NCBI RefSeq assembly: GCF_000002865.3
Contig: NW_001865091.1
Coordinates: 25,332-89,331 of the forward strand
Length of the DNA: 64,000 nt
Direction of reading: 5' to 3'
Source of the DNA: Monosiga brevicollis MX1
Lineage: Eukaryota
A program made the position numbers and the translations under genes. This document shows, piece by piece, positions 1,098 to 59,900 of this stretch; the stretch's first letter is position 1; each line of letters starts with the position of its first letter. Under the pieces are notes generated by a model, which saw only the letters and a program-made list of their open reading frames with translations, was not told the origin of the DNA and searched no databases.

Positions 1098-2393
1098 GTT
1101 GCGGCAGTGCAGGTCGATGCGGCAGCTCTGACCATTGGCGTTGTAGCCAGACTTTTCCACCCAGACATGGGAGAGGGTGGCGTACCTGAGCAGGCGGCCC
1201 ATCTCGTCGCGAAGGGCATTGTGACGCTTGATGGGACGACAGGTCAGCAGGTGCTCGCGGGTCAGTCGCGGCTGAGGTGTCTTGCTGCTGCAGACTTGTC
1301 CGTCGGCTTGACGTTGATGAGTTCATGGAGGCCAAAACCCATCATGGACACGACCGCAATGGCAAAGGTCGTGTCACTCAATCGACGTAACCTGTCTCGA
1401 CCCCGCATGGTCAAGACAGTGCTGACGCCCCACTCGCATGAGGCCAGATATGCCTGCTGCAGGTCCAGCGCGCACTTGGCCATCAGGTCGTCAAGTACCG
1501 CCTTGGAGCGGAGGGCAATGATCTCAGCTGGTCGCTGGGTGGCCGCGTCCTTGACCGTGGCCATCTGGAAGCCAGCTCGCTGTACGTGAACCTCAAAGTC
1601 GGCAGCCCTCGATGCATCCTCCAAGAGTCGATCGAAGACCCGAGGGTAGCGAGTGGCCAGCTTGGCCATGTTGCAGACATAAGCCACCGGACCGCGCTCA
1701 ACCAAGTCGTGCAGGCCAACGCCCCCGGTGTTGGCCCGCGTGAAGATGCGAGCCTCCAGGAGCTGTTCCAGCGTAACGTCATGACCTTCAGCTCCAGCTG
1801 GTGCAGACAGGTTTACCTTGGCAAAAAAGGCTTTGACAAAGGTGTCCTTGCAAGCACGGTTCAAGAGCTCGGACAGGCCCGACGTCAGACTCGGGGGCAG
1901 CGTGTAGAGGTGATTGATGAGGCTAGGCACATACTGCATGGCCGTGAGGAGGGCCTGAAGCGAGACACCGGTCGTCAGCATGTCATTGAGCTTGCCAGCA
2001 ATGTGCTTCGCCTTGTCGTTCAGCTGCTTCTTCATCCACTCGTGACGGCCAATCAGTGTTCCCAAGACCGTCATGCCCGTGTTGGCCGTCTCACGCACGG
2101 CATCTGGCAAGACAGACTTGATAGCAGCGATGGAAGCGGGATGGTGGCGAGGCATGTAGAAGCGGCTCTTTCTGGGCTGCAGATGGAGGCCAGCAGACTC
2201 TGCACGAGCCTTGACAATCTCCACGTCGGCTGCCACGTCCTCGGCGGGACCCATCAGTACAATGTCATCGAGCTACTTGATGACCTTGCAGCGATAGTCA
2301 GTGGTGGCGTCGAGGAGACCGAGGACCTCACAGGAGTACAGGGCAAAGAAGAAGGGCGATAGTTCGTTGCCCTGCACAATGCCTTGGCCAACT
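1098..2393 (-). pseudogene. Degenerate CRE-clade non-LTR retrotransposon fragment (RT C-half, CCHC zinc finger, start of restriction-like endonuclease)
   Basis: RT motifs GIVQGNELSPFFF and K*LDD, where the Tyr codon of YLDD is TAG at 2273-2275, followed by LGTLIG and GGVGL. After a frameshift at ~1293 it reads CSSKTPQPRLTREHLLTC-RPIKRHN...VEK...RID (CCHC + RHN + RxD of RLE). Truncated at both ends. Confidence 0.85.
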
Positions 2394-3819: not shown

Positions 3820-6800
3820 TCAGTCCCGTGAGGGCCAAGGTCGCAAGGCGTGGCACGATGCGGTCACACTGCGTGTTCTGAATCCGTGCTGATGGAACAC
3901 GCATGTGCGATTGCTCTCAAGGGTACAGCCATCACAATGTCCGGTGGGATAAGGTAGAAGAATGGTGAACAATTTGCTTTTGGCTTGAGCGTTAACGGTC
4001 AAGTTGAAATCAAATGATCCAACGGTGGCCTCGATGATCAGTGCACAGCTGACATCACAGCCCAGCTGCGAGGAATGATAGTCTATTTGCCCACCGTCTG
4101 CAAAAGTTGCTATGGAGGTCACAGCATTGTCGTGGAGTCGAGTGTAAATCGCACTGCGCTCAGACAAATTGAACTTCAGCTCGCGCATGAGGGTATTGAG
4201 GGTATCATCCGCTCGCTTCAAAGGCACGGCAGGCAGCATCAGGTAAGCCGCAGCATTGGGCAGCGGCTGAGCCAGAGTCCACTTGACATAAAAACGCTCA
4301 ACGGTTTGAGTCCGATTTGAGTCACCAATAGAGATCCAGTTGCCCGAGGACGTGCCCCTGAATATATCCAGGGAGCCAGAGGCAGACGAATTGATGGCAA
4401 AAATTGTATTGTCATGATGAATCCAGGCAACGCTTTCAGCCGGCAAAGTGATAAGTTGATGCGACATGATGCTGATGCGCTTGCCGTTTCGCAGAGCCAC
4501 GGTCACGGATCCTGCAGCTCGGCAATCTGCAAGTGTAAAGATGACTGGCATGCTGACAGGCCCAGAGATTTGTTGTGCGGTAGCCACTAACACGTCTGGA
4601 AACATGGCCCAGCTGCGTACGCATTTTAGGGGGCGAGGTTTCGAGAATTGTGTCATAAAGGTGGCACCAAGTTTGCCGTTGCTGACTCCACCAACATCTG
4701 AGGTCAACGACCTCATGTAGGTCGATTTGCACGTGGGTTTGTTGGGAAGCTATGCATGTGAGGCGAGCGGGATGATGAGTAAAATCAATACTTTTGTTCT
4801 GATAGAGGAGGGGAGGGGGGCGTACGGATCGCGCACATACCTGCTCAAGCAGGGCTCCAGGAAGCTGCTGCCAATCCCAGACTGGAAAGATGTTGTCATA
4901 TTCATGACCCGTGTAGTAGAGAGCTACCGTGCCGCTCGCAGTGAGCTGACTTTGCTTGCCCTCATTGTTGATGCACCGCGCATTTGTCGATAGGGATGAG
5001 AACATGTGTATGCTGTATTGATAGCCCGGGCCACGCATGATGGCGTAGTCACTGTCAAAGAAGTAGCGGTGTCCGAGAAGGGTTGTTCCGGAGTCATTGC
5101 GCGCCAGGCGAAGAGCGAAATTCAGAAACTCGTCGCGACGAGTTGAGTTGAGGGCAGCAAGATGGTCGACATTGAAATCCACACGGTGCACGCCAGGCGG
5201 GCGGGCGATGATGCGTCCAGTGACAGCAAAATCCCAGACTTCGTCTGAGCCGACGGACATCCAGGCTTGGCCATCGAGGACAAGTCTTGCAAAGTTGTGC
5301 AAGTGCTTTGGGGATATGTAGAAGCTGGTGTCACGTGCCAAATGCACAATGTTAAGGACGAAATTCGTGTAGTTGGCGCCATAGCTACCAGTGAGGTGTT
5401 GACCTCGATGTTGACTGAAAGAGCCATCATGATTGATGCCATCGTGCTTCGAGGATATCATAGATGCGCTGGCATAGACAGTGTCCAAGGCGCGAGAAAC
5501 TTCGGAAGGTTGGCCTTCAAAAGCAGAGCGTAAGACATCGACATACGCCTGCCAAACCTGCAGGTTGCGCCAGGGCAGCGAAAAAGCGACATGAGTTTGA
5601 ACCCTTTCTTGCAGATGATACTGGAAAATGCGGCGCAAGCGGTGCAAGAGCTTGGGTTGGTGCGAGGGCCTTGGGCTTACCAGGTTTGCACCAGTCAGGC
5701 TCGACCACCTGGCGCGATTTAAAGTGGGAATGGCCTTGTTGTAGATGGAACGAGGGATGGCTTCGGGTCCGATGAGGACAAAGGTGGCAGCGAGGGCTTG
5801 GGGAACGGCAATATCGTTCCACCACCTAAGCAGCAGTAAGGTTTGCCGAAAAGGGAGGAGAGAGAGAGATAGTTTGAGAGTTTGAGAGAGAGAGTTTGAG
5901 AGAGAGAGATAGTTTGAGAGTTTGAGAGAGAGGGAGAAACAGAAGGAGGAGGAGAAGGAGGAGGAGGAGGAATGGCGACAAGGAACCAGAGGGTTGCAAC
6001 AAAGTTAGGGATCGCACGGGACCAGGGGGAGAGATGTGGCAGAACTTTAGTAGACTGCGGTCGGACAGACAAGGCAATCGTACCAGTTTTGAGAGGTGAG
6101 GTGATGCGGAGCCAGCGTTCAGTNNNNNNNNNNNNNNNNNNNNNNNNNNNNNNNNNNNNNNNNNNNNNNNNNNNNNNNNNNNNNNNNNNNNNNNNNNNNN
6201 NNNNNNNNNNNNNNNNNNNNNNNNNNNNNNNNNNNNNNNNNNNNNNNNNNNNNNNNNNNNNNNNNNNNNNNNNNNNNNNNNNNNNNNNNNNNNNNNNNNN
6301 NNNNNNNNNNNNNNNNNNNNNNNNNNNNNNNNNNNNNNNNNNNNNNNNNNNNNNNNNNNNNNNNNNNNNNNNNNNNNNNNNNNNNNNNNNNNNNNNNNNN
6401 NNNNNNNNNNNNNNNNNNNNNNNNNNNNNNNNNNNNNNNNNNNNNNNNNNNNNNNNNNNNNNNNNNNNNNNNNNNNNNNNNNNNNNNNNNNNNNNNNNNN
6501 NNNNNNNNNNNNNNNNNNNNNNNNNNNNNNNNNNNNNNNNNNNNNNNNNNNNNNNNNNNNNNNNNNNNNNNNNNNNNNNNNNNNNNNNNNNNNNNNNNNN
6601 NNNNNNNNNNNNNNNNNNNNNNNNNNNNNNNNNNNNNNNNNNNNNNNNNNNNNNNNNNNNNNNNNNNNNNNNNNNNNNNNNNNNNNNNNNNNNNNNNNNN
6701 NNNNNNNNNCTACGAGCTGAGCGTTTGATCGTCATAGTCGAGGTTGTCAAACGTGCAGCTCGGGGTCAGGGATGCCAGGTAGGCGTCGGCGTCAGCCTGA

Positions 6801-9563: not shown

Positions 9564-12500
9564 CTAGGCCTCAAAACCGTAGGCTGACTCATCTTCATCG
9601 TTCAAATTGACGTTGCGAGACTTGGCCGGCCTACAAGAACAGTAAAGCATCAGGCATAGCGGAGAGCATGAGAAGGCAACACCACACACTGCAAAGGCAA
9701 AAAAGAAGAACAAAGAAGAACAACGCAAGTACAAAGCAAGTTCAAAGCAAGAACAACGCAAGAATAAAGCAAGAACAAAGAAAGAGCAAAAAAGAACCAA
9801 GACAAGGGTGGGAGGTTCAACGAAGCGGCGGGGCTTACCGAGCTGGCGGTGGCCCACTGTCAAAGTTGACGACACGGGCTCCAAGGTCGGATGACATCAT
9901 CTCCGAGTCTTCACCAAACGCAGGCTGACTAATGGGCGTCGCATACATGCTCTCCATGGCCGCCATCGGACCAGCGCCATTCTGCTTGTCCAAGTAATCC
10001 AAGATGACGCGGTACACAAAGGCATACTGCTCGGCGGTCTGGACCATACCAGGTCGTTGCGTGCGCAAATGCTTCGTCACTTGATACAGATCCACCTTGT
10101 TCTCCTGCTTCATGCGCTCGAGGCAAATAACAGCAGCACAGTATGCGCCCGTTCGGCCCACGCCAGCGCTGCAGTGCACCACCGTGGGCTTCAGCTGTTG
10201 CAAGATAGCGTGTTCGTTGATGGCCTCGCGGTTGCCGTAGATGCTCTCCTCTTGAGGCACTACAACCTTGCTTCGCGCGTAGTCCTCAACGCGCATCACC
10301 AAGTCAACCAAGTCACGGCCAGAGCCCATTTCGCCCGAGGAAGGCCAGTTTGGAAACTGCCAGTGCTTGACCTCACGTGCTTGATCCGAGACGGGGTTGA
10401 GCAGAGTCAAGGTGCGCTCCACACCAAAGCTCTTGTGCTCCTCCTCAGAGATGGACACCTGCAAATCTCCAACATTGAGGGGGTCACTGCCCAGGGAGGG
10501 CCAGTACTGTTCTGACTTTTGCCGGCCACTCTCCTCAAGGTGAGTCAGCATGACAATGCTGTGAACCTCCTGCTCCCATACCATGCGCCAGAAGTCTGCC
10601 AGCGTGCTCTGCATGGGGCCCTGTGTGGCAATAAACTGCTTGCGTTGACGGAAGCCGTCAATGTAGCTGGCGTTGATGTAATCCGAGCCGACAACACCCG
10701 GCAGGGCCGATAGCTTGACGCGCGAAGCATCGTAAGGCATGATGTTCTGAAAGCGGTTCTTGCTTTTGTTTGCCATCTGCTGAGCAGCGTCAGTACGCGT
10801 GTTAGAGGAGGGCGGGCCCTGACTGAGGCCACGGAACTCCTGGTCCAGCTGAGTGCCGCCGGAGGAGACGGGCTTGCGCAGCTCATCAAAATGTTTGCGC
10901 AGCGTTTCGGGACTCATCTCCGTTACAATGTTGGAAAGACCATCTGCCAATGCCCGGTAGATAAAAATGTACTGTCCTTCAGTCTGAACCATGGTGGTGC
11001 GCTGGCGACGCATCTCGTTGAGACTGCCCATGACATCAACCTTGTTCTCGCTGGCGGCCTTGTCCAAATTGTAATCGATGGCAATGAGCGTACCAGTGCG
11101 GCCCACACCGGCAGAGCAGTGAACCACCATGGGCCCCGCAGCGGCCTGGTTACGCGTCTCCTTGGCCCGGCGGATAGTCGTCAAGATGCCAGCAGTGGAA
11201 TCTGGGACACCGTGATCAGGCCAGGAGATGTAGTGAAATTGGGTAACAACCCGCGACTGCTGGCTCACCTGCACAGTCAGATGGCGAATGACCATGTCTG
11301 GGAATTCCTCCTGCTTGGTCATGAATACGCTCATGTTGGTCGTCAGCGGGAGTTGACCACCCACTTCCTCAGGCCAGTAGCGGTGACATTTGGTGCGGCC
11401 CTTCTCCTCGAGGTTGGTGACCATGACGATAACCGAGACGCGCTGCTCCCAGATCATGCGCCAAAAGTCCATGAGTGTGTGTGGCAGTGGTCCCTGCGCA
11501 GCAATGTACGACTTGGGCTGGTTATAGCCATCAATGTAGTTGGCATTGATGTAGTCGGAATACGGATCGTTGGGAAGCTTGTGCAACGGCACACGCGAGT
11601 GATCGTAAGCCAAAATGTTGGCAAAGCGGTTCTTTTGCCGGTTGCGGTCCATGATGGCGTAATTGCGACCAAACTCAGAGCCCGACTCAATGCACTCGTA
11701 TTCCTCGGAGAACGCAAAGTCCGAGTTGGCGGCCATCTGCTGAATCACCGTGTTGAGGTCCGACACCGAGATCTCATGACGCTCAACAGGGGGCATGTGC
11801 GGCACGCCGCTGGCAGCGCCACCAGCGACACTGCTAGCGCCCCGGGGTGGCGCAATAACTGCCGCAGAAGCCCCGCCCTTGGGAGGCAAGCTGGGCTGTA
11901 GGGACGAGGACGTCGAGGTCGGGCGGACCGGCACGAGACCCATCGACGGGCCGGAGCGTGGCGCCGGCACTGGCGAGTGAAAGTTGTTTACATCCACAGC
12001 GGTAGAGTTGGTCATCGTCGAAGCTGTGTCGTTGCGCCAGAAATCTTCATCAGGCGCAGCGGCTTTGTTCTGGCGACGCCGCCACATGACAAAGACAAGA
12101 ACGGCCACAATGAGAACGATGATGACAATGACAACTCCAACGATGATGCCAGTATTGTCAGCGGGGGCAGCCGCCGTCGAGGCCAAGGCCGTGGTCGGGT
12201 TGAGGCTGGCGGCCTGGCACAGTTCATCGTTGCCATTTTGCGTGCAGGTGAGGAGACGGAAGGTGTAGGTGGCACCTGCTTTGAGAGGACCATTGACATA
12301 ACCATCACCGTCAGCGTCGACCTTCTCTCGCTCGGCACCAATGACAAAAGAGCTTCGAGACAGATCCCCCAATCCCTCCGACTCGGTAAAGGTCTGGCTG
12401 TACGCAATGTAAGCCATCGGGCTGCTGGCAGCCTGGGCTTCGGACCACGTCCCGAAATCACAGCTGCTAGAGGCGCAGTCCAACGAGGCGACGGCATGGG

Positions 12501-15500
12501 TGCTACTGCCTTGTGGCTCGACCACGAGCGAGAGCCGACGGATGGGACCCGAGTACGTGGAGGGTGCGACCCAGCTGACAGCAAAGGCTGATTGTGAACT
12601 ATATCCATCAGGCAGAACGGCACTCGTGACCGCGGGCGGTGCTTCAGGCCGCGCTGAAAGCGTGCGGCGCTCTGCCACGCGCCCTGGACCACGCAAGATC
12701 ACACCGGTGCCCTGCGTGTTCACCGTAACGAGTGACATGTTCATGGTATACAGTGTGTAAGGCCGCAAGTCAGTAAAGGTCCGGCTGTAGTCATCGTTTT
12801 GACCCCGCTCATGACCACTGCGGTCGTTCGAAAAAGGCGAGTCTTGATCCAGCGTGGTCGAGTACTCAAGCTGCGTCAAGGCACCGTTTGAATTGTAGTA
12901 TTGGCGCTCCGTGCGTTCGACAACTAGAGCCAGGTAATCGATTGGCCCATTACGCTCATGCTTAAGAGGCAACACGTAATTCAGCGTCATCTGACTGCTA
13001 GTTACGCCTGTAAAGTCAAGCTGTGTCGGCGCCGCCTCGGGGGCGGCTGACTCGGTGCGTTGGTGGCCCAAGCGATAGAGGGGCGCGGCGCCGACCTCGT
13101 TGTTGGCCGTCACCTCGACGTCGTAGGTGACGTAGGGGTCCAACTGTGTATACACCGAGTCGTAGTCATCGCTGCCCAGTTCATCGGTCGCGGTGATGGG
13201 CGTGGTCACGATCTTCTTGTTTGGGGTGTCGTACTGCGAGTCGGAGCTAGCGGAGATGACCACCGTATAGTTGGTCATGATTCCGTTGCGAAGAAAGATG
13301 TCCAAAGACTGGAAGCGCAACCGGAAGGTGCGCGCCGTGACATCGAAAAACTCAAGCTCGTCGACGATACCGGTCGGAACGGTTGGAGCCAAGAGTTGGC
13401 TTCGGCTATCGTACATGGTGCCAAAGCCCACTGACGTGGCCGCCTCAACCTTGACTGCGTACAGAAAAGCCGGTTGCAAGTGAGGAAATTCAACAGCAAA
13501 ATCGCGCTCCGGGGTGAAGGGGGCTGTAACGGCAATATTGGATACAGTGGTCTCGATGGTATGGTCGCCAGGGGCTACTGCTGGCGAGGATTGGCGCTCG
13601 AGCGTGACTCGAAACGACTCAATGATGCCATTACGTCGAGTGGCGATGGGGAGCGACCACGAGACATTGATGCGGGCATCGCCGTCGCCATCGCCTGTCA
13701 ATTCAGTGATTGCTAAATTGCGCACTGCGGCATCAGGAGTATAGGGATCCGTTTGAAAGACGACAGCAAATTCGGGGCCGTTCAAACCATTGCCGTTGGA
13801 GGCGCGGACCGTGATTCGATACTCCATGTAAGGCTGCAATGAGGACAGGCGAACTCTGGTGACAGCACCGTCAATGGTGCCAGTTGCGGCCAACTCATCG
13901 GGTGCGGTCCGCAACCCGCCGTCCTGGATGCGGTACGCAAAGTCGCTGTTTGCGCTGTTCGCCTGATAAGTAATGAGGTACCTGAGCTCGGGACCATTCT
14001 GATCTTCTGATCGCGGTGGTGTGATCGAAAACATCAAGGACTGATCGCTGGAATCGCTGAGGTCTACCGCACGCACCGCCGTGGCAGGGGCCGCGCGTGC
14101 CGTGGTCCAGTCATAAAAGGCAGTGCTGATACCAGCCCCCACTGCCGTGCGAGGTCGAATTGACACATTGTACTTGACGTACTCCTCTAGCGAGTCAAGG
14201 CGCAGCGTGAAGAGATTGCTAGCAGCGCCGGAGTTGTTGACACTGAACTGACAAAGACCACCGCAGGCATCTGTGGCGTCCGTGTCCACGCGGCGTGGGT
14301 CATAGTCGCTGGCGCGCGACAAGGTAACCAAAAAGCCTACAATCATGCCCGAGCGGTCGGCTTCAACAGGCAAGGACCATCGAATGACGCTAAATGTTGC
14401 GCCATCGCCACCAGACGCCAGATTGATGGCAGTTACGGGGCCCTGAGGAACATCCTCTGAAGTGCGGTAGATAAGATCATCACTGGCTGGAGAGAGCAGG
14501 CTGGCATCAGAGGCGGGATGGGCATAAAGGCGAACGACGTAATCGAGGCCCGGGTGAAGGCCAGTGAGCGTTGTTTGGGTGCCTACGAGGTTTGTTTGCA
14601 CCATGGGGGCCGAAAAGTCGTCACTGATTCCCAAGCTGGCAGCGGTGACCGACGTGGAGTCCGCGTACGTGGTCGTGCTCTTGGCCACGTACTCCAGGCG
14701 GTAGCGCAGATTGTTCGTGTTGTGAGCCGCTGCAGGGGGCGCCGCCCAGCTCACAGTCAGACTATTGAAAGTGGCTGAGGCTGTCTGATCCAGCACGGGA
14801 GCGGCATCGGGGGCAGCCTCGAGCGTCTCAACATTTCCCAAGTAAGTGGGCGGACCACGCAGGGCAGCCATGCCCGTGTTCTCCGCATACACGGTCAGGT
14901 TGTAGATGATGTGCTTCTCAAGGCCGGAGAGAACGAAGGGTGATGCACCCATGCGCTCGCGACCGGTGTCCGGAAAGGATGCGTTGGCGCGCACTTGCCC
15001 AGGCACACGGGCAAACTCAACGTAATACTCGGGGGTACCCATGCGATCAACCGGGTTCAACTCACTCCAAACTACATTGATGCTGGTCGAGGAGATGGCT
15101 GTGGCCGTGGCCACCACAGGGGCCACCGGATTGTCCTGCTGGGTTGTATAGCGAGCCGTATCGGAGGCCAGGCCATCGCGCGAGCCCGAGCGTGTGCTGT
15201 TGACACGCAACAAAACACGGAAGGCGTAATCCGTGGCCGGCACTAAATCGTCGACTTCAACGACACCGGCGGTAACCTCGGCGACCGTCACCTGGCGCTC
15301 TTGCGCTGGCACTTGTCCAAACTCGTTGCAGCCCGCCACCTGCTTGTCAGTTGGCACGTGGGGTGCAGAGCAGTCAAAGATCCACTGCAGCGTGTAATGC
15401 AGGATTGGCAGGGGCTCCGTTTGCGGTGCCGTGATGGTGACGGCAGCCGTGTAGCCCACGTCCACCTGGGCACTAGTCACGGCCAAGCTAGGCGCACGCA

Positions 15501-18500
15501 TGGCACGGCACTGCATCGTCGTCTGCTCCAGCGTCTCATCCATGATAGCGCGAAACCCGTCGATGAGGGAGATGCCATCGTAGCTGAAGATTTGAACGTC
15601 ACTGCTGTTGAACACCGCGTCATAGAGCTGAGTCGAACCATCCAATTCACCCGTGTGCAGATATCCAGCCGAGTTGTCGGCAGCAATTTGAAGCACGGCC
15701 AGACCAACAGGCGAAGAGGCATCTTGGGCAAGGGTGGAGTTCACCTGAAGAGCAAAATTGGTGTCAGCTGGGAGCTCGACCAGTTTGAGGACCCCGTCAT
15801 TGGACGAGTATCGGCTCTGCGTCGTAAAAGTCTTTGCAAAGGCTGTGTTGTCCGCAAGGTTGACAAACACTAGGAACATCTGTGTGGTATCACCGGCGGA
15901 TTCCCCGGACGCAAGGCCTGCATTGGTTGCAGCCACAGATACGCCCAGCTGGCAGTCTGACTCAGGATCCCGGACGGGTAGGACTTCGAAGAAGGGAATA
16001 TGACGCAATTGACCACCAATGACGTCCAGCATTACAAGCACGTCGTTCAGGGACACGCTCTGGCTCAGATCCACGTCCATGGCGGCATTCGATGCGGGTG
16101 CCTGGCCCAGGGAGCCAGTCAAGTATTGAAGCAGCAGGAGGGCATCACCAACAGTAAGGCGACCATCATCATTGAAGTCGAGGGAAGCATCAGCGTCACC
16201 AACTGCGGCTCGCCGACGCCGCCCACTGCCACCGCCAATGTGAATCGAAGTGCCAGAGGTACCCCAGTGATAGGATGTTGAGACGGACCATCGGCGATCA
16301 CGCTCCCAACCGGGGGCGGGAGTGGAAGTCGAAGCCTCAGCCTTCACGCCGGCGTCCCAAGAAAAATCGTTGCCGTGTGAACCCAGATGATACGTTGTGT
16401 GAACGGCCCAGCGGCGTCGGCGAGCTTGCTCAGCAAGAATGTCAAACTGAAAACTGGACCCCGGGGAGCGAACATCGCTCAGCAAGACCACACCAGTCGC
16501 ACCCGTGAGCTCCACAAGTTCAACATCAAATCGCACCGTGGTTGACGCCGTGCTCGCGACGAGGAACGTGGCCGTACCAAAATCCACGTTTTGACCTGGT
16601 GCCAACGGTTGGGCAAAGAGGCAGGAAATGGTAATACGCTTATCGGTATCGCGATTGGCTCGAATCAAACCCAAAACACCGCGGGAGACGCGGACGTGCT
16701 GCAGCGTGAGGGCATCCCGTGGGTCAAGCGTGATGCGCAGCTGGATGGCACCCACGGCCACATCCGAGGTCAGGCGCAACGGCATCTCAAAGGTGCTTCC
16801 AGCTGTTTGGTTGGAAAAACGCGTGAGATCGACACCCGAAGCGTCCTTGTCCAGCTGCACTGTCACATTGATTTGCCTTTGCAGCTCCTCGTTGACCATA
16901 ATCGTCAGCTGCACCGGTTCCGCAGACGAGGCCAGGACGTCCAATCGACCAAACTCATCAATGGCCAGGATATTTGCGTCGGATGAGGCAAACGTGATGC
17001 CGAGCGCAGTGGGAATGAACGTGCCCGTGAGGGTCTCGTGCAGCAGGTGCGCTGGAATCGTCGTGCCATCGCTCAGCTCAATGTCAAAAGACAACAGCAA
17101 CTGACTGTCGGAGTCGTCAATGACCATTGAGCTACCACTGGTAGTGACGTTCATGGCTGCCAAGTTGTACACGGCAAAATTGTCAATATTTTGCACAGTA
17201 CGACTGCTGCTGTCGGATCGCAGCAGTTCGGCAAAGTCATCACCAGTTTCAAGCCGCACGAGCAAATTCTTTGAGGAGCTGGCGAGATGAGCAGCCTGAA
17301 TGAAGAGTGTCGTGTCATCGTAAACGCCAAACTCGATGGTGGCACCGTCGTACTCAAGAGTGTCGACAAGGCTGGTTGGCACGTAAATGTGATCGTCTCT
17401 GGTTCGGATCTGCACAAAGGCCACTCCTGGAACGGCTGCGATGCGATCGGTGACAGTGCCGAGGTCGGGATAACTGAACGTGAGAATTTCAAAGACTGGC
17501 AGTATTAATTCAATGTTAACCCGCAGCTCCAACTCCGAACCCTCGGACGTTTCAATGATAATGGAGGCCTTGTTGCTTGTCGGATCGTCCTCTACTTCAA
17601 TGTATACGGCACCTTCGCCCTCGATGAGCGAAAAGTTGTTGAGATAAGTAGAGGCACCCAGCTCGACGTTACTGCTAGAGATGGGCACGCGCGAGCCGTC
17701 ACTGTACACGATTTCCAAATGAATCACGGCCGAGTATGGCTGATCAAGACGCTCGCCGTATTGTCGGCCATACAGGGAGGCGGGTGCATCCAAGGCCACC
17801 AGCTCCTTCGGCACTGGGCGGGAATAGTTGAGGTCAAAGGAGGCGCTGATTGTTTCAGGCGTGCAATCAGCCCGCTGTGCAAGTTCAAGACTGCGAGTTT
17901 CCTCCGTATCTTCCGTCAGCACGATTTCATCCAAGCTCGTTGTGAACATATCATCAGACGGAGTAAGCGTCCAGCGGTCCGAGGTCATGGGGTCGAACAA
18001 ACTGAGAAGAGCAAAAGGAAAGGCTCGCCCAGCAGTGAGTCCCACAACGAAGGAAGATTGACCCCGGGCAGTAGCTGCCTGCGCGCCCGAACCAGCCACC
18101 ACGTGAGAGAACATTGCACCCTCAACACGACCCAAGTAGGCACGGGCGCCCAAGTAGATGGCCGCTGAGCTAGCATCCCGCACGGTGACTGTTGCGCCCG
18201 CCATCTCGAGATCCACACTGATGGAGACGGTCCCAGCCGAGACACCCACAAAGGCACGTTGTGTGGCCTCGTACGCCAGGTGGGGACCATAGCCCGAGAA
18301 AGCGGTGGGGGCAACCAGGCTCGTCACGTCCACTTCTGTGACGGCGTTGGTGCCATCGGTAATGTCCGCCCAGACTCGTGGCCGGGTCGTGGAGTAGATA
18401 GGCCGGCACGCCTCCGTATCATCGGGATCGGCCGTCTCGCCAATCGGTGAAACCACAGACTGACTCATTTCAAGACGGGCATTGACAGCACGCCAAACAG

Positions 18501-21500
18501 TCAATGAATAGTTGCCCGTCATACCAAGGTGAGTAGCTTGAAGCTGCACTTCGCCCGCAAAGTCGCTGGCGAATGTGAGGGTGCTGCAACCATCCAGCTC
18601 CTCCTCCGCCGAAACAGGAACGACCGCACAGCTCAAGCTGGACACGGTCACTGGGCGACCATCTGAGGCGAACACTTGTACGTCTAGCGCCACAGTGTTC
18701 TGCTCAAGAATATTGAGGTGGTGGCGCAGCCCGTTGGCAGGGCGGATAAAGACAGCTGCCGCGTTGGCCTCCAACACGTGAAGGACTGCGCTGGCATTTG
18801 ATTGCTTGCGCACATACACCACTTGGGGTACTACCGAAGCCTGGGTGGCGAGTCGCACCTCATCGGCCACAATCTCGATGGTCACTGTTGCCTCCTCGCT
18901 CACAGGTCGAAAGGCGATATCAAAAAGATCCAAATCCTCGGGCTGATTTGCATCGGCATTCGTGGTGAAAGCCGTCACCACCAGCGTGTGGGCATTGCCT
19001 TCTTGAGATGAGGACTGGATGGCTACGAACCAGTCGTCACTGGCAACAGCAAAGCTGCTTTCGGTAAACTGAGCTCCATGCGCAACAACGGTAAATGCCA
19101 AGCTCATGACGGGTTGGCGACGGTGGTAGGCCACGCGCATGAAGCCAGCGTCGGTCACATTGTCGCTCAAAAAGACCGCAACGGTGTTGGGGGTAACAAA
19201 CGCTGGCATGGCGATGGAGGTGGCCAAGGCACCAGTAAGCGTGTTGGCAGTCCAGCTCTGGTCGGCGGCAGTCGAGACCGTGAAGGCTGCCTCGGCAGCG
19301 CCAAACCATGAGCCAGGCACGTGAGCAGAGCCCGTACAGATACCCAGGGCCGAAACGTTTGTCATGCCACAAGTCAGGGTCAAGGGTGAGAATGAGGCAT
19401 TCTCGTGGGTGACGTGCAACAGAACCTCGTAGGGCGCAACCCATGGCTCTCCGGCTGGGCCAAGCGCTTGAATGGCAACGTGTAGGCGCGGGCTGATCGG
19501 TGAAATGGTGCGAGTTAGGAGCCGCAAATCCAAGGACGTGGCAGCACTGGGCTCCAGGGTCACGGGTGCCGTGTTATGCACTGCACCGTACTGCATCGAC
19601 ACAGTACCGGCAGTGGCGTAGACGAATTTGACATTAGCAGTCATGTTGCTGCTGAGCACACCGGCATCCAGGGATGTGGGACCAAAAAGTGCAAAGTCGG
19701 CAGACATTTCCACAGATACATTGTAAAGCGGGTCGGGGAGGGGCGCACAGATGGTATCAATGGAGCCAGCGCATGCTGCCTGCTGCCAGTAGCCCGCACC
19801 GCAGACGCCACAGGGCGTGCAAAGGCCATCACACTGCTCGGGACGGTAAAAGCCATTGGTGCTTGTGCAGGCCTGGCAATCGAGATGAATGACAAAGGGA
19901 TCGCTGTCCGCGACGTAAACGGCACCCGTGTACAGGGTACGAGCGCCTGTTTCGATGGGAGCTTGCAACTTGGAAAGCACATCCTCGGCCACGGTTTGTG
20001 AGCAGCTGTGGCAAATCACACGAAGGGAGGCCTGCACGTTACCAGCCACCTGTTCGTGAGAGATGGAAGCCAGGTCATCGTCAGAGAAAGCACGGGAGAT
20101 GCTGGCATCGGCCGTCAGAGCGGCCGCAAGCGCCTCACGCAGAACGCGACGCTGAACTTCATATGTAAAAGTGGTCGTTGAGGGCAGCCGAAGGCCAAAG
20201 TAAATAAAGATATTGCCGGACCCCGGATCGTCAGAGCGACTCGGTTCGTCTTCAATGAGGCGCAAGAAGGCCCGGGAGTAGGCAGGACCATTGGTCGAAG
20301 ACAGGTCATCGTAAAGGTCACCACGGCCAGTGCTATTAACCACATCACGAACGGCGGCAAGGACATCTTGGTATTCCGCATCAATCGCGTCAATGTGAAA
20401 GTCGATAACGGTGCTGCTATTCTGGGAGACGCAAACGCGGTCAGAGGTGGCGGTGGCCTCCACAAACTCCTCGTAAAAGCGAGGATCACACTCGGCCAAG
20501 AGCTCGCATTGACGGTCGGTCACATTGGAAGGAGCGAGTACTTCGTACTCATTGTCCGTGCAGTTGGTCCAGGGCGTGCACGCGCTAGCCGAGCTGCTGA
20601 AGGAGAAGGTAGCATCAGGACACGCCGAGCATTCGCGCTGCGACGTGATGGTCGGTGGTGCCGTCACGTAGGAGCCGGGCGCACAGTCGACAACGGCGGC
20701 ACACGTGGACTGTCCAGCATTGGCCTGAAAGTTGACGCCAGCCGTGCACGCTTGACAAGAGGTCGCCTCATCGTCGAGGCTCACAGATCCTGGCGGGCAA
20801 GAAGCACAGGATGGCACGTTGGTCGAATCACTATAGGTACCCGCCGTGCATGCAGCGCACTGGCGATCACTCGAGGAGGTGGGGTCTTGTGAGACTTCCT
20901 GGCCGGGATCGCAGTTGCGAACTGGAGCACACGAGGCATTGCCCCCCGAGGCAAAAAAGTCGGCTGCACAGGCTGTGCAAACGCGATCCGAGGTGGCGTT
21001 GGGTGCAGCAGTTTGTCCGAAACCAGCTGGGCAGCTGCTCCAAGCACGACATTCCACGGCTCCCGAGGCATTTTGAAAAAAACCAGTTGCGCAGGGCACG
21101 CAGACATCATCGGTAGTCAAGCCTTGCCGAGTGCCTGGTGGGCAGAGTTCGCAAGTGCCTGTAGAGTTGGACGTTCCGTTCTTGCAGGCACAGCTGCGAT
21201 CCGAAGTGCTGGTGGCTGCGACAACTTCTGTCTGCGTATCTGGGTTGCAAACCGTCAGATTGGCACACACGCGATCCGAAGTATTGGTCGCAGGAACCTC
21301 AGCGAACTGTTGTGCGGTGCAGATGGTCAGATTGACGCAGGACGAGGTCTGCGTGTCCAAGTACTGGCTGCCGGTGGCGCAATTGGGCAGGCCGGTGGTG
21401 GTTGCAGCAGCAGTGGTTGTGGGTGCCAACGTCGTATCGGCCGCCGTGGCGGTCGTGGTGGCAGTGGTTGTGGTGGCGGCGGTTGAGCCGGCAGCCGTGG

Positions 21501-53958: not shown

Positions 53959-56900
53959 ATGATCCATTCAAATAGGGTCGTGCCCTTGCTCATGGGCCTG
54001 TGCCTGGTCTTGTCTCAACTGGCCGACGTCACGCAAGGTATCCTTGCTCACCCCCCTCGCCTGTTTTCCCTCTTTGCCCCTTGTAATTTTTTTTTTTTTA
54101 GATTTTTTTTAATTGTTTATGTGTGTGTGTGTGGTTATATGATGCCAAGTCTTACTCCAAATCCCCTTGTACAGGTGCATGTGAGGTCGGAGGCTGCAAT
54201 CATGGTCAGTGCAACACCACAAGCAACGCTTGTGAGTGCGAGCCCGGCTTTTTTGGCCCTGCGTGTGCCTTTGAACAATGCAACGAGATGCGGGCGTTTC
54301 GCCCCGGTCTGTTGGTCAACATGTACGACGACTACAGCTTCAGGTCCATGGACGGCGGGCAAACGGTCTGGCCCTATATCAGCTTTGATTGGAACTACGG
54401 CGCCCCGTATCCTCTTCCCTCGGACCACTTCTCCCTCCTGGCCCAAGGGGTGCTACGTCCCACCCAAACGGGCTACTACAAATTTCAATGCCGCTACCGT
54501 CAAGGCGCCTGCCGTATCTTTGTGGATCGCAATCAGACGACCACCGAGCAGGCCATGTACCTTTCTGCCGGCCAAGCGTATCGCCTCAAGCTGGAGTTTC
54601 AGCACTCCACAAGCCACACCTATTGGTACTTTGATTGGTCTGGCCCCCTCGCCGACCCAGGGGCCGAGCCCAGCTTTGCCCCTGTGCCCGCCGACCACCT
54701 GGAACACGAGGCTGTGTGCACCGCCGGCTGCTCTGCTCGTGGCTGCTGCGAAGTCTCCGATCAGTGCTTTTGCCCCGAAGGTTTTACCGGCAGCGACTGT
54801 AGCGTGCCCATTGACACCCCAAACTGCGGCACGGACCATCCACAGGGGCCCTACTTGCCGGGCGGCGTCAACATTGCCCTCTATAGCGACTATTATTGGG
54901 GGTCTGGGCAACCACCCGTGACTCAGCTCACCCAACGCTCGCCTTACTTTAGCGCTGGTTACGGCACGCCGTCCTCTCTCATCAGCAACCGTGATTACTG
55001 GTCTCTCACCTTTTACGGCAAGCTGCGCGTCAACGTCACGGGGTGGTACACCTTTCAGACCACCATGGGCAGTGGATATGGTGTTGCGCTCATCGGACCC
55101 CATGCCGTTATCATGCCCCTCATGGGCAGCACCAGCCGCGACATCTTCCTCATCGGTGGCCGCCTCTATGATCTGCACGCCAGCTACAAACACAGCGTCA
55201 ACTCGGGCCACTTTCGTCTGCGTTGGGCACCTCCAGGTCAAGAACTGGTCACCATCCCCACTTCAGAACTTTTCACTCCGACCCAGGGCAGCTATTGCCA
55301 AATCGGTTTTCTTTGCAACGAAACCGGCTTCAACAACAACGGCGCCTGCCTATGCGATCCCCTTCATGAAGGCGAACACTGTGAGCATTATCGCTGCCGC
55401 TCTGACGAATGTCGCTACCACGACAATTGCTACGATGAGGCCTATGGCAGTGACGACGCCGAATGCAATGGCCAGGGGCGGTGTGTCGCTGGTGTTTGCG
55501 AGTGCGAGGATGGCTTTACGGATCACAGCCAGTGCACCCGCGAAGGCTGTACCGATGCGTCAGACTGCTCCAACCACGGGGCGTGTGGGTTGGATGGTAT
55601 TTGTCAATGTGAGACCGGGTACATGGGCGAGTTTTGCGAGCTGACCGTCTGCGGAAATGATCGCGCCACGCTCGCCGGTTTGATTGCCACCTACTACGAC
55701 GGCAGCGCCTTTAACGAAAGGCGCGCCATGGTGGCGGTTCCCACCGTTTATCTCGACATTGACTATGGCGCCCCACATCCCGGACTGCCAAGCGACTACT
55801 TTAGCGTGGTCTATGCGGGGTTTGTGCGGCCCAAGGAAACGGGCTGGTATCGCTTCCGACTGCGCCGTGAGAATAGCGATGCGTACATTTATATGAATCA
55901 GACCTCCTACGACGACAATGCCATGCTCCTGACGCGCGCCGAACAGCTGCGCATCAAACTTGAATGGCGCCACTACACATCAGACACATCGCTGTATTTC
56001 GAGTGGATGGGGCCGTTTCCCAATTCGACGCTGGCGCAGGCAGCACCGTCGAGCGAGTTTACGATTGTTCCGGAACACGTGCTGCTGCACAAGGCGGTGT
56101 GTCCCGGGGGATGCTCGGGCCGTGGCTGCTGTGTGGCAGCGGACACCTGCTCGTGTGATCCGGGCTTTACCGGGCCGCGGTGCGAAGTGGCTTTTTCCGA
56201 GTGTGGAGACGATGCCCCTGAAGGCAACCTAGAGTCGGGTGGTCTGCGTGCGCGGTTCTACGATGAGCGCCTTGAGGACGCTTTGACCAGCACTGCTGCC
56301 TGGGTTGATAGCGGAGTCCGCACGGTCATTAGCTCTCACTGGGGTTATGGTGCGCCGGCCTCGGGCATCGACAACGACTACTGGACAATCGTTTATACGG
56401 GCTACCTGCTCCCGATCCAGTCAGGCTGGCACCGAATTCGTGCAAGAACCGACTCGATGGACGCTCGGCTGTACCTGGGTGGGGTGCGGCTCTTCACGTG
56501 GACGACGGCCTGGACTCAGAGTGTCTACCTCGTGGCGGGCCGTCTTTACAACATCCGCTTTGATGCACGTGACGGCACGTCAGACGCTGGCGTGTGGCTT
56601 TATTGGGAAGGCCCGGGCTTTATGGAGCAAATTATTCCAAAGACCAATCTCTTTCACTATGAAACTGGCTTTGCTTGCTCCTGCGGGGTCGACGCTTGTA
56701 CGACCTACGAGCGCGGTGTCTGTGCCAACGGCCTGTGCGTGTGCCACGGCCAGTTTGAGGGCGAGCACTGTGAGCACTATCGCTGCCGTGCCGACGAGTG
56801 CCGCTACCATGACAACTGCTACGATGAAGCCTATGGCAGTGACGATGCCGAGTGCAACGGTCAAGGCCGCTGCATGGCCGGTCTTTGTGAATGCCCATCG

Positions 56901-59900
56901 GGTCTCACCAACGAAAGCCAGTGTACTCGCCAAGGCTGTGTCGACGAGGCTGACTGCTCCTACCATGGAGTCTGTGGCGAAGATGGCACGTGTCAGTGCG
57001 ATGCCGAGTACATGGGCGAATTTTGTGAGCTGACCGTTTGCGGGGATGATCGTGCCACGCTTGCCGGTCTAATTGCCACTTACTACGACGGCAGCGCTTT
57101 CAACGAAAGGCGCGCCATGGTGGCTGTCCCATCGGTGTACACCGATGTGGCCTACGGGGAACCGCATCCCGGTTTGCCGAGCGACTACTTTAGCGTGGTC
57201 TATGCGGGGTTTGTGCGGCCCAAGGAAACGGGCTGGTATCGCTTCCGACTGCGGTGGGAGCGCAGTGATGTCTACTTTTATCTCAACCGAACGCAGTACG
57301 ACGACTCGAGCAGTGCGCTGTTGTATGAGGCCGGGGACATGATCCGTATGAAGATTGAATGGCGCCACTACACATCAGACACATCGCTGTATTTTGAGTG
57401 GATGGGGCCGTTTGCCAATTCGACGCTGGCGCAGGCAGCGCCGTCGAGCGAGTTTACGGCAGTTCCGGAACACGTGCTGCTGCACGAGGCGGTGTGTCCC
57501 GGGGGTTGCTCGGGCCGCGGCTGCTGTGTGGCAGCGGACACCTGCTCGTGTGATCCGGGCTATGGTGGTCCAAACTGTGAGGTGGATTTGTCGACTTGCG
57601 GACCAGACGCACCCAGAGGGGCATTGCAATCTGGCGGCGTCAAGGTGCGCTACTTTAATGGCGTGCAAGAAGACGCCATGACCGCCAATGTGACTTGGGC
57701 TGACGGCGGAGTCAAGAGTCGCATCAACCTCGCATGGGGTTATGGTTCGCCGGCCTCGGGCATCAGCAGTGACCACTGGACTGCTGTCTTTAGTGGCTGG
57801 CTTCTTTCTGACCAAACGGGCTGGCATCGGTTCCGTGTGGCGACCGACTCGATGGACGCCCGGCTGTACCTGGGTGGGGTGCGGCTCTTCACGTGGACGA
57901 CGGCTTGGTCTCAGAGTGTCTACCTCGTGGCGGGTCGCCTTTACGACATGCGCTTTGATGCACGTGATGGCACGTCTGATGCCTCAGTGTGGCTTTACTG
58001 GCAAGGCCCCGGCTTTATGGAGCATTTGGTGCCTTCGGCTAATCTTTACCATTACGAAGATGGCTTTATGTGTGGTTGTGGCAGCAGTGGGTGCAGCGGC
58101 TCGGGTCGAGGCGTGTGTGCAGATGCCATGTGCGTGTGCCACGGCCAATTTGAGGGCACGTCTTGTGAGCACTATCGCTGCCGTGCCGATGAGTGCCGCT
58201 ACCATGATAACTGCTACGATGAAGCGTACGGCAGTGACAATGCTGAGTGCAATGGTCAAGGCCGCTGCGTGGCCGGTGTTTGTGAATGCAACAGTGGTTT
58301 TGCCGATGAAAGCCGGTGCACGCGAGAGGGTTGTGTAGACACCGTCGATTGCTCCCAGCGAGGCACGTGTAATGCCGCGGGCCAGTGCGAGTGCGACACC
58401 GGCTACATGGGGGAAGCGTGCGAGCTGAGCGTATGTGGCAATGAGCGTGCCATGCTGCCAGGGATCTTGACTACCTACTACGCTGGCTCCGCGTTTGGAG
58501 AGCGGCGCATCTCCATTGCCGAGCCAAACATATATCGTAATTTGGACGGCAATATTCCATTCCCCGGCCTGCCGAGCGATTATTTTAGCGCCACGTTCGA
58601 GGGGTTTGTGCGACCCAAGGTGACGGGGTGGTATCGCTTTCGATTGGGGTGGGAACGCGGCTCGGGTCGCGTCTTCTTAAACCGGACACAATACACTGAC
58701 TCTGCTCATTCGATGCTCTTGACTCGGGGCGAGCTGCTTCGTCTCAAGGTGGAATGGCAGCATGATCGTTATGACACTGCTGTATATTTTGAGTGGATGG
58801 GCCCTTTTGTCAACTCCTCGCTGGCTGAAAGCACCGACTCGACAGCCTTTGAAGCCGTTCCATCGTTTGCACTGTTACACGAAGCCGTGTGCACCGGTGG
58901 TTGTTCGGACCATGGCTGCTGTGTGGCACCCAACACGTGCTCGTGCGATGAAGGCTACACGGGGCCACATTGTGAGGTAGAGGTCTCGACGTGCGCCTCG
59001 GAACCCCGCGGCTCGCTCGCGTCGGGCTTGCAGTTGCGCTTTTTCAACGGCCACTACACAGATGCCATGGTGGATGGTGTTCCAGTCGTAACGCAGCGGG
59101 CCAGCAATATTCACGTCGATTATGGATATGGCTCCCCTGCCAGTGGGGTGCAATCCGATTATTTCATCGCCGTCTGGTCAGGGTACATTCTCCCGCCGCA
59201 AACGGGTTGGTACACCTTCCGAGTTTGGACCGACCACATGTCGGCTCGTCTGTTTGTGGCCAATCAACTTTTGGTAGACTGGGAAGACGCCTGGTCAACG
59301 CAGATCTATCTGCACGCCGACCGCTATTATGAGCTACGCTACGACGCTCGCGAGGGCGTTTATGACGCGGCAGCACGTCTTTACTGGACGGGACCAGGCT
59401 TTATGGAGCACATTGTGCCTTCTTCAGTTTTATTTTCACTGCCGGACGACGTCAGTTGCCCATGCCCGGACAATTGCACTCGACACACCCAGGGCTATTG
59501 TTTGGACGGCTTTTGTGCTTGCACCGGTGCCTTTGTGGGTGACAATTGCAACGAAGTGCGCTGCCGCACAGACGAATGTTTGGGGCACGATGACTGTCAT
59601 GATCCTGCTCTGGGAAGCAACAATGCCGAGTGCAGCGGCCTGGGCAGCTGTGTTGACGGCCAGTGCGCCTGCCCTGATTTGGGCCTGCAGGCATCATGCA
59701 CCACAGAATTGTGTCCGGGGGATGGTACCTGCGGCTTGCACGGGACCTGCACCAACGACGGTTGTCTTTGCGAGGCTGGCTTTGATGGCAACGCGTGCCA
59801 ATATCATTCCTGCCCCCGCGAAATGGGCCAACTGCCTGGTTTGCGTGCGCGGTTCTACAACGAAGTAGAGCGTTTGATTGTGGTTGCCTCCACAGTGGTC

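What the first reader, a model, noticed from the sequence alone, without database searches (positions are those of the whole stretch)
16010..16835. Cohesin-polybasic linker-dockerin: a candidate cleavable, re-latching ectodomain in a receptor tyrosine phosphatase
Seen: a cohesin-like beta domain (~16835-16435, AGSTFEMPLRL...VGAIQLRITLDP..LTL...FGTATF) and a dockerin-like pair of Ca-binding loops (~16200-16010, DFNDDGRLTVGDALLLLQYL...DVDLSQSVSLNDVLVML). They are separated by a ~70-aa linker with three R-x-R-R sites (RRRR 16411-16422, RDRR 16291-16302, RRRR 16210-16221). Known: cohesin-dockerin is the Ca-dependent, mechanically strong pair of bacterial cellulosomes; RxRR is the furin/kexin consensus; many animal RPTPs are furin-cut and stay non-covalently associated. 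Inference: cleavage would leave a membrane-bound dockerin-FN3-PTP subunit holding the distal ectodomain through cohesin. That would be a Ca- or force-releasable, possibly exchangeable latch, analogous to Notch HD, SEA or GAIN domains but built from cellulosome parts.
Basis: partly seen in the sequence, partly recalled or inferred. Interest (0 to 1): 0.9.

Follow-up and report, generated by a model that had tools for sequence, protein, structure and literature searches.

The report
Cellulosome clasp in a choanoflagellate receptor
A giant cell-surface phosphatase, likely from a choanoflagellate, carries bacterial-type cohesin and dockerin domains split by a variable spacer that keeps arginine-pair motifs at both ends in all eight related proteins compared, so the receptor is likely cut there and its halves would be held by the cohesin-dockerin clasp.

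Summary
The 4334-codon frame at 9835-22839(-) encodes a receptor tyrosine phosphatase.

The cohesin is real: a structural model matches solved cohesins in the top 13 rows (Z 11.4-14.0). The dockerin passes Pfam's cut-off. The three RxRR sites are where stated.

In the window plus 7 homologues (three named choanoflagellates), an Arg-Arg motif sits at both spacer ends in 8 of 8. Of 16 end sites, 11 are strict RxRR; one protein has none strict. The spacer varies from 12 to 63 residues with little conservation. The middle site is a local duplication found only in the window.

Best reading: a kexin/furin-like convertase likely excises the spacer, like proinsulin's C-peptide, leaving a two-chain receptor clasped by cohesin-dockerin. 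Cleavage, binding and the cis geometry are inferred. A Notch/GAIN-like force trigger fits poorly: the cut lies 1354 residues from the membrane and this clasp type is very strong.

No paper in my searches describes the sites, but two key papers could not be read.

The parts
9835..22839 (-). Main open frame (4334 aa, P0001) of a type I receptor tyrosine phosphatase; roughly its first 100 codons look intronic
24288..24720 (-). Probable first exon: ATG, signal-peptide-like hydrophobic stretch, Thr-rich repeats, start of Cys-rich repeats; further small exons lie down to about 22890 (boundaries inferred)
20425..22431 (-). TNFR-like Cys-rich repeats (10 Pfam stretches in the frame) with Thr-rich stretches
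21574..21585 (-). Fourth RRRR site (aa 419-422), aligned with an RRRR in P0017
18040..19722 (-). TMEM132-like block, assigned through orthologues (approximate limits); no Pfam hit in the window copy itself
16423..16848 (-). Cohesin domain (aa 1998-2139; the structural match starts about 10 aa earlier)
16411..16422 (-). Boundary site 1, RRRR; an RR at this position in 8 of 8 sequences
16222..16410 (-). Spacer, 63 aa, unstructured in the model, poorly conserved, no Cys or sequon; holds a duplicated 17-aa unit (16372-16422 and 16252-16302)
16291..16302 (-). Middle site RDRR, part of the duplication; not in the 7 homologues
16210..16221 (-). Boundary site 2, RRRR; an RR at this position in 8 of 8 sequences
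15985..16209 (-). Type I-like dockerin; loop 1 at 16144-16179, loop 2 at 16042-16077
15487..15984 (-). Conserved unnamed beta-rich domain (X) directly after the dockerin, with two conserved Cys; present in all 8 sequences
12205..15486 (-). FN3 repeats (7 Pfam stretches)
12076..12150 (-). Transmembrane helix
10000..11643 (-). Tandem PTP domains: D1 with catalytic Cys and intact WPD loop, D2 with Cys but altered WPD loop
9564..9630 (-). Probable last exon after a GT-AG intron; its C-terminal end resembles that of P0012

Best explanation
This receptor phosphatase carries a cohesin and a dockerin joined by a spacer with conserved Arg-Arg ends, and it is likely made as one chain whose cohesin would dock on its own dockerin before a kexin/furin-like convertase likely cuts out the spacer, leaving a two-chain receptor that would be held by a Ca-dependent clasp.

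Shown: domain identities, site positions, their conservation, the spacer's variability, and the receptor architecture.

Inferred: (1) cleavage in the late secretory pathway, about 0.85; (2) that this dockerin binds this cohesin, about 0.7; (3) that the pairing is mainly in cis, about 0.75.

The spacer would act like proinsulin's C-peptide, giving slack for docking and then being discarded. The distal half (Cys-rich repeats, TMEM132-like block, cohesin) would stay on the membrane half (dockerin, X, FN3s, TM, PTP D1-D2) but could be shed or swapped. That would change receptor size or clustering rather than expose a juxtamembrane switch.
For: - RR at both spacer ends in 8 of 8 sequences. Site 1 lies 45-54 aa past a cohesin anchor; the last site lies 6-17 aa before the dockerin's first Asp.
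- Background is 60 RR/KR runs in 21,785 extracellular residues, or 0.02-0.06 per 15-aa window. The homologues are only 19-36% identical to the window over this module.
- Two of the three all-Arg columns across the 8 rows are the spacer ends.
- Spacer length runs 12-63 aa, and only 2 of 28 pairs align at p<0.05. It has no structure in the model and no Cys that could bridge the halves.
- The residue after the dockerin-side site is A, S, G or D in 8 of 8, which suits convertases (recalled).
- The stretch from the first basic site to the dockerin loop is never under about 27 aa. Three archaeal cohesin-dockerin tandems have a roughly 8-aa link and 0 of 3 have RR/KR (near-copies, so a weak control).
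- The 7 PTP-bearing members form one group on a D1 tree, support 97/97.
- Both dockerin loops keep Asp12 in 8 of 8.
- Precedent: LAR-type RPTPs are cut at a penta-Arg motif into a non-covalent heterodimer (PMC12598525, passage). M. brevicollis has two kexin-like genes, and choanoflagellates have carboxypeptidase D.
Against: - All mechanistic steps rest on sequence; I found no experiment on this family in 10 paper searches.
- P0018 has no strict RxRR anywhere in its extracellular part, and 5 of 16 boundary sites are plain RR.
- In the window, sites 1 and 2 are followed by Trp and in P0002 site 1 by Phe, unusual for furin (recalled).
- Dockerin positions 10-11, the specificity residues in bacteria (recalled), vary widely, and loop 1 is remodelled in P0016, P0018 and P0021.
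- A second, weak cohesin-like match lies upstream in P0017 (iE 5e-4), so the dockerin may have another partner.
- A further RRRR at aa 419 (also in P0017, and one near the start of P0014) has no cohesin-dockerin beside it, so polybasic sites here need not imply a clasp.
- The 8 sequences are related and not independent.
- Three more columns are Arg in all 7 rows that cover them, in the FN3 region.
Confidence: 0.47

Rival explanations
1. The protein is cut, but the pairing is mainly in trans. The membrane-bound dockerin captures cohesins from other copies, from shed halves, from the upstream TMEM132-type cohesin or from coherin cadherins, building cellulosome-like surface assemblies or cell-cell links.
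For: Cohesins occur in other choanoflagellate and sponge proteins (PMC6030884). There is a weak upstream cohesin match in P0017. Prokaryotic tandems with very short links exist and probably cannot dock in cis (inference).
Against: The two domains stay adjacent and in the same order in all 8 sequences, with slack between them. Cis docking during folding would have a strong concentration advantage (inference).
Confidence: 0.25
2. The protein is cut and the distal half is simply shed. The cohesin and dockerin have lost affinity for each other and serve as structural or Ca-binding modules.
For: The RRRR at aa 419 has no clasp. Dockerin recognition positions are variable and loop 2 of the window copy is degenerate.
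Against: One site would be enough for shedding, yet two are kept in 8 of 8. A cognate binding pair flanks the cut precisely in every member.
Confidence: 0.13
3. The excised spacer is the product: a secreted signalling peptide released as from a neuropeptide precursor.
For: The window copy has two similar peptides each behind an RxRR (score 46, 0 of 5000 shuffles), and the second ends in Gly before RRRR, an amidation-type signal (recalled). P0002 has a similar aromatic pattern after site 1.
Against: Spacer sequence and length are not conserved, and the Gly before the last site occurs in 1 of 8.
Confidence: 0.06
4. The protein is not cut there. The arginines are kept for another reason, such as binding acidic polysaccharide or a folding or trafficking role.
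For: P0018 lacks strict sites, and bulky residues follow some sites.
Against: The motif is always an RR pair at two fixed domain borders of an unstructured linker, and the rest of the spacer is not basic.
Confidence: 0.09

Closest known systems
LAR-type (R2A) receptor tyrosine phosphatases
   Same: FN3 repeats, TM and tandem D1-D2; best PDB sequence matches are PTPRF/PTPRS. They are cut by a furin-like convertase at a penta-Arg motif into a non-covalent heterodimer (PMC12598525, passage).
   Different: No Ig domains by Pfam. Two sites around a spacer, 1354 aa from the membrane. A cohesin and a dockerin flank the cut. The family is a separate group on the D1 tree.
Cellulosomal and non-cellulosomal cohesin-dockerin pairs
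   Same: Cohesin fold (Z 14.0) and a dockerin with two Ca-type loops. Prokaryotic proteins with both domains exist.
   Different: Here both lie in one eukaryotic receptor, separated by a dibasic-flanked spacer. The 3 archaeal tandems examined had a short link without RR/KR.
TMEM132 family and the coherin, lefftyrin and hedgling cadherins
   Same: Cohesin domains in choanoflagellate and sponge surface proteins and the TMEM132 block (PMC6030884, whole text). TMEM132 fourth-domain hits in P0016, P0017 and P0018.
   Different: No cadherin repeats were detected. The cohesin studied here lies about 400 aa downstream of the TMEM132-like block and is followed by a dockerin; that paper notes vertebrates lack dockerins and mentions no cleavage.
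Proinsulin-type C-peptide excision (recalled)
   Same: A variable spacer between two basic sites, with the flanking parts expected to stay together.
   Different: The halves would be held by a Ca-dependent protein clasp rather than disulfides, inside a membrane receptor.
Notch HD/NRR, SEA and GAIN cleaved heterodimers (recalled; Notch S1 by furin seen in PMC2770060)
   Same: A cleaved ectodomain that would stay non-covalently attached.
   Different: Those junctions are near the membrane and formed by one split domain. Here two separate domains lie far from the membrane.

Membership tests
Cohesin (PF00963) | Profile score above Pfam's cut-off | tested here: inconclusive
   Window copy 21.2 bits against 24.1; orthologue P0016 38.8 bits, above
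Cohesin (PF00963) | Nine-stranded cohesin beta-sandwich | tested here: met
   Model strands; top 13 of 50 listed rows are cohesins, best Z 14.0, rmsd 2.4, 130 aligned
Dockerin type I (PF00404) | Profile score above cut-off | tested here: met
   28.2 bits against 22.9; PDB 2y3n_B E 3.8e-6
Dockerin type I (PF00404) | Two 12-residue Ca-type loops each followed by a helix | tested here: met
   Loops 34 aa apart, Asp12 in both loops in 8 of 8; helices in the model; loop 2 of the window copy degenerate at 5-6
Cohesin-dockerin pair | Ca-dependent high-affinity binding | not testable with these tools
   Needs a bench assay
Receptor PTP with tandem domains | Signal peptide, one TM, D1 with Cys and WPD, D2 | tested here: met
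   the signal peptide is read from an inferred first exon
LAR/R2A subfamily | N-terminal Ig domains (recalled as defining) | tested here: not met
   No Ig family hit in the frame or in the 6 orthologues scanned, apart from TMEM132/Big_2 types
Coherin / lefftyrin / hedgling | Cadherin repeats | tested here: not met
   No cadherin hit in the main frame or in the 6 orthologues scanned; the window's small 5' exons were only partly scanned
TMEM132 block | CR-cohesin-three BIG domains in order | tested here: inconclusive
   Fourth domain above cut-off in P0016 and P0018, below in P0017, no hit in P0012, P0014, P0021 or in 7 window pieces; weak upstream cohesin in P0017
Proprotein-convertase substrate | R-x-[RK]-R or dibasic site in an exposed luminal loop | tested here: met
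Proprotein-convertase substrate | Actual cleavage | not testable with these tools
   Needs a western or N-terminomics
Notch HD / SEA / GAIN type switch | Cleaved junction next to the membrane within one domain (recalled) | tested here: not met
   Last site at aa 2210, TM at aa 3564, two separate domains

The most novel reading that the evidence does not exclude
Choanoflagellates run a convertase-activated, exchangeable receptor system built from cellulosome parts. The spacer is cut out, and the membrane phosphatase stub's dockerin becomes a Ca-dependent socket that holds, releases or swaps cohesin-bearing ectodomains (its own, other copies', or coherin cadherins'). This would give eukaryotic cohesin domains, the ancestors of the TMEM132 cohesin, their first identified dockerin partner.
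Probability: 0.3. Interest if true: 0.92.

Novelty: new variant of a known kind. Interest (0 to 1): 0.76.

Why it matters
Cohesin domains in choanoflagellate, sponge and animal surface proteins have no known function, and the TMEM132 paper names the lack of a dockerin partner in vertebrates as the obstacle (PMC6030884). This family supplies a cohesin and a dockerin side by side, with a conserved processing signal between them, in a tractable species (S. rosetta PTSG_13149, P0014). That makes the question directly testable with two small domains and a tagged gene. If right, it is an independent solution to the cut-but-held receptor design of LAR and Notch, in animals' closest relatives, using a module best known from prokaryotes.

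Tried and rejected
- Complex prediction of cohesin with dockerin: no verdict. Score 0.30 against a mark of 0.34, the alignment was not used and no controls were folded. It is not evidence either way.
- Single-sequence AlphaFold: mean pLDDT 33, unusable.
- Direct homologue search with the module among 2383-7585-aa proteins: none of 1459 candidates. The profile search among 843-2405-aa proteins found only P0004. Searching with the PTP domains worked.
- Metagenome scans: one search found none; one search gave 80 loci, 0 of 80 with cohesin, dockerin or X. Most are short, so this shows no absence.
- Alignment A2 (short query against whole proteins) misaligned the cohesin and was discarded.
- The X domain was not identified by Pfam, NCBIfam or the Atlas. 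The fold search was filled by the cohesin, so neither X nor the dockerin was tested structurally; the Foldseek PDB search could not be submitted.
- Profile-profile comparison found no second cohesin in 13 blocks upstream of the cohesin.
- The amidated-peptide idea was rejected as a family feature: Gly before the last site in 1 of 8.
- The idea that the spacer is an intron was rejected (in-frame homologues); alternative splicing is not excluded.
- No genome is held for the window, so paralogues and the convertase genes of this organism could not be checked.
- Earlier-findings look-ups returned nothing.
- Nichols 2012 and Peer 2009 were not held.

Full report
The gene. The finding lies in a 4334-codon frame at 9835-22839 on the minus strand. 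Pfam finds TNFR-like Cys repeats, a dockerin, 7 FN3 stretches, a TM segment and two PTP domains. Upstream small exons give an ATG at 24720 with a signal-like stretch, and a short last exon follows a GT-AG intron (boundaries inferred). D1 keeps the catalytic Cys and WPD loop; D2 has an altered WPD loop. The organism is not given. The named orthologues are from Salpingoeca rosetta, S. infusionum and Barroeca monosierra, so it is inferred to be a choanoflagellate.

The observation. The three sites are at the stated coordinates. They are 3 of 4 R-x-[RK]-R sites in 3564 extracellular residues, and 0 of 5000 shuffles cluster three within 75 aa. The dockerin passes Pfam's cut-off (28.2 against 22.9 bits); the cohesin falls just short (21.2 against 24.1). 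A profile of 8 family sequences ranks dockerins and cohesins at the top of PDB (2y3n_B E 3.8e-6, 4uyp_A E 1.7e-5), and the Atlas's best clusters are cohesin/dockerin proteins. An AlphaFold model from that alignment (mean pLDDT 53) has a beta-sandwich at 55-79, no structure over the spacer (24-31), and helices in the dockerin. The top 13 structural matches are cohesins, best Z 14.0, rmsd 2.4 over 130 residues, ending just before the first RRRR. Contigs from 4 runs show no joint. One 310-base contig from a run on record as RNA spans the spacer; its four listed differences are two silent and two missense changes inside the spacer. The other runs may be DNA, and one may be the window's source.

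Relatives. A full phmmer search gave 10 hits. Three share the domain after the dockerin (P0002, P0004, P0011), six are prokaryote-type dockerin proteins and one is a repeat artefact. P0004's cluster holds the longer B. monosierra protein P0012. A search with the PTP domains gave 74 proteins, of which 5 carry the module: P0014, P0016, P0017, P0018 and P0021. For counts I used the window plus 7 homologues. I dropped P0011 (fragment without the spacer), P0004 and P0013 (same cluster as P0012) and P0015 (no module). On a D1 tree of 33 rows, chosen from 69 with a full domain, the 7 PTP-bearing members form one group with support 97/97; the root is midpoint only and P0002 lacks the domain.

Conservation. 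All 8 have an RR at both ends of the linker. Site 1 ends 45-54 aa after a cohesin anchor and the last site 6-17 aa before the dockerin's first Asp. Of 16 boundary sites 11 are strict RxRR; 7 of 8 proteins have at least one, and P0018 has none. Background is 60 RR/KR runs in 21,785 residues. The sequences are related, so I give no joint probability, but they are only 19-36% identical to the window here. Three alignment columns are Arg in all 8 rows, two of them the spacer ends; three others are Arg in the 7 rows that cover them. The spacers are 12-63 aa and Cys-free, and 2 of 28 pairs align at p<0.05. The window's middle site is part of a duplicated 17-aa unit (32 of 57 bases alike; 0 of 5000 shuffles) and is not in the homologues. 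As a control, 30 archaeal cohesin loci gave 3 cohesin-dockerin tandems, near-copies of each other, with a roughly 8-aa link and no RR/KR.

Mechanism. Fixed dibasic ends around a disposable, unstructured spacer point to excision by a kexin-like convertase. M. brevicollis has two such genes (10.1101/802215, passages), choanoflagellate PCSKs are noted in PMC2770060 (passages) and carboxypeptidase D in PMC6850559 (passages). A cognate binding pair on either side of the cut, with slack between them, suggests that the halves dock in cis and stay joined, as LAR-type phosphatases do after their S1 cut (PMC12598525, passage). I put this at 0.47, trans pairing after cleavage at 0.25, plain shedding at 0.13, no cleavage at 0.09 and peptide release at 0.06. 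Against it: plain-RR sites, bulky residues after some sites, variable dockerin recognition positions, a possible second cohesin upstream and an RRRR at aa 419 with no clasp. The cut is 1354 aa from the membrane, and bacterial pairs rupture above 120 pN (PMC6030884).

Prior knowledge. PMC6030884 (whole text and supplement legends; supplementary figures not visible) reports cohesins in choanoflagellate and sponge proteins and the TMEM132 block, without cleavage sites. Searches for cohesin+dockerin+choanoflagellate (1 paper), +furin (1 unrelated listing) and +Monosiga (0), and (listings only), showed no description of these sites. Passages of PMC7959691, PMC10084454, PMC12484212 and PMC10815196 added nothing on it. 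Nichols 2012 and Peer 2009 could not be read. They may already list a choanoflagellate cohesin-dockerin protein, so the domain pair itself may be known; the conserved processing signal is the part I could not find in print.

Verdict. This is a real, family-wide feature and a new variant of the cleaved-heterodimer receptor, with the decisive steps inferred and easy to test. Interest 0.76.

Noticed in passing
window 21574-21585 (-): A fourth RRRR among the TNFR-like repeats, just before a Thr-rich stretch; aligned with an RRRR in P0017, and P0014 has one near its start. It may be a second processing site.
   Followed up: partly
window 15487-15984 (-): Unnamed conserved domain after the dockerin with two conserved Cys; it could be a dockerin-supporting module. 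No family was found.
   Followed up: partly
P0016, P0018, P0021: A subgroup has a Cys just after the last basic site and another in dockerin loop 1, a possible disulfide that remodels the first Ca loop.
   Followed up: no
window 9564-9630 (-): The last exon ends in a hydrophobic-tipped tail similar to P0012's, possibly a PDZ-binding end (motif recalled).
   Followed up: no
window 54102-62285 (+): 2727-aa frame with repeated PA14 and teneurin-like EGF domains, a cadherin and a TIG domain; it has one RxRR-type match.
   Followed up: no
window 3820-6004 (-): Polysaccharide lyase family 8 gene in two frames, probably split by an intron; a possible transfer from bacteria (untested).
   Followed up: no
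window 1262-2272 (-): Very weak reverse transcriptase match (E 0.21).
   Followed up: no
P0015: Labelled as a jellyfish protein, with 29 FN3 and 4 PTP stretches; probably a fused gene model.
   Followed up: no
L081-L098; L099-L128: Marine Thalassarchaeum-type archaea carry small double-dockerin proteins, and 65 of 401 genomes of that phylum have cohesin matches, up to 10 each.
   Followed up: no
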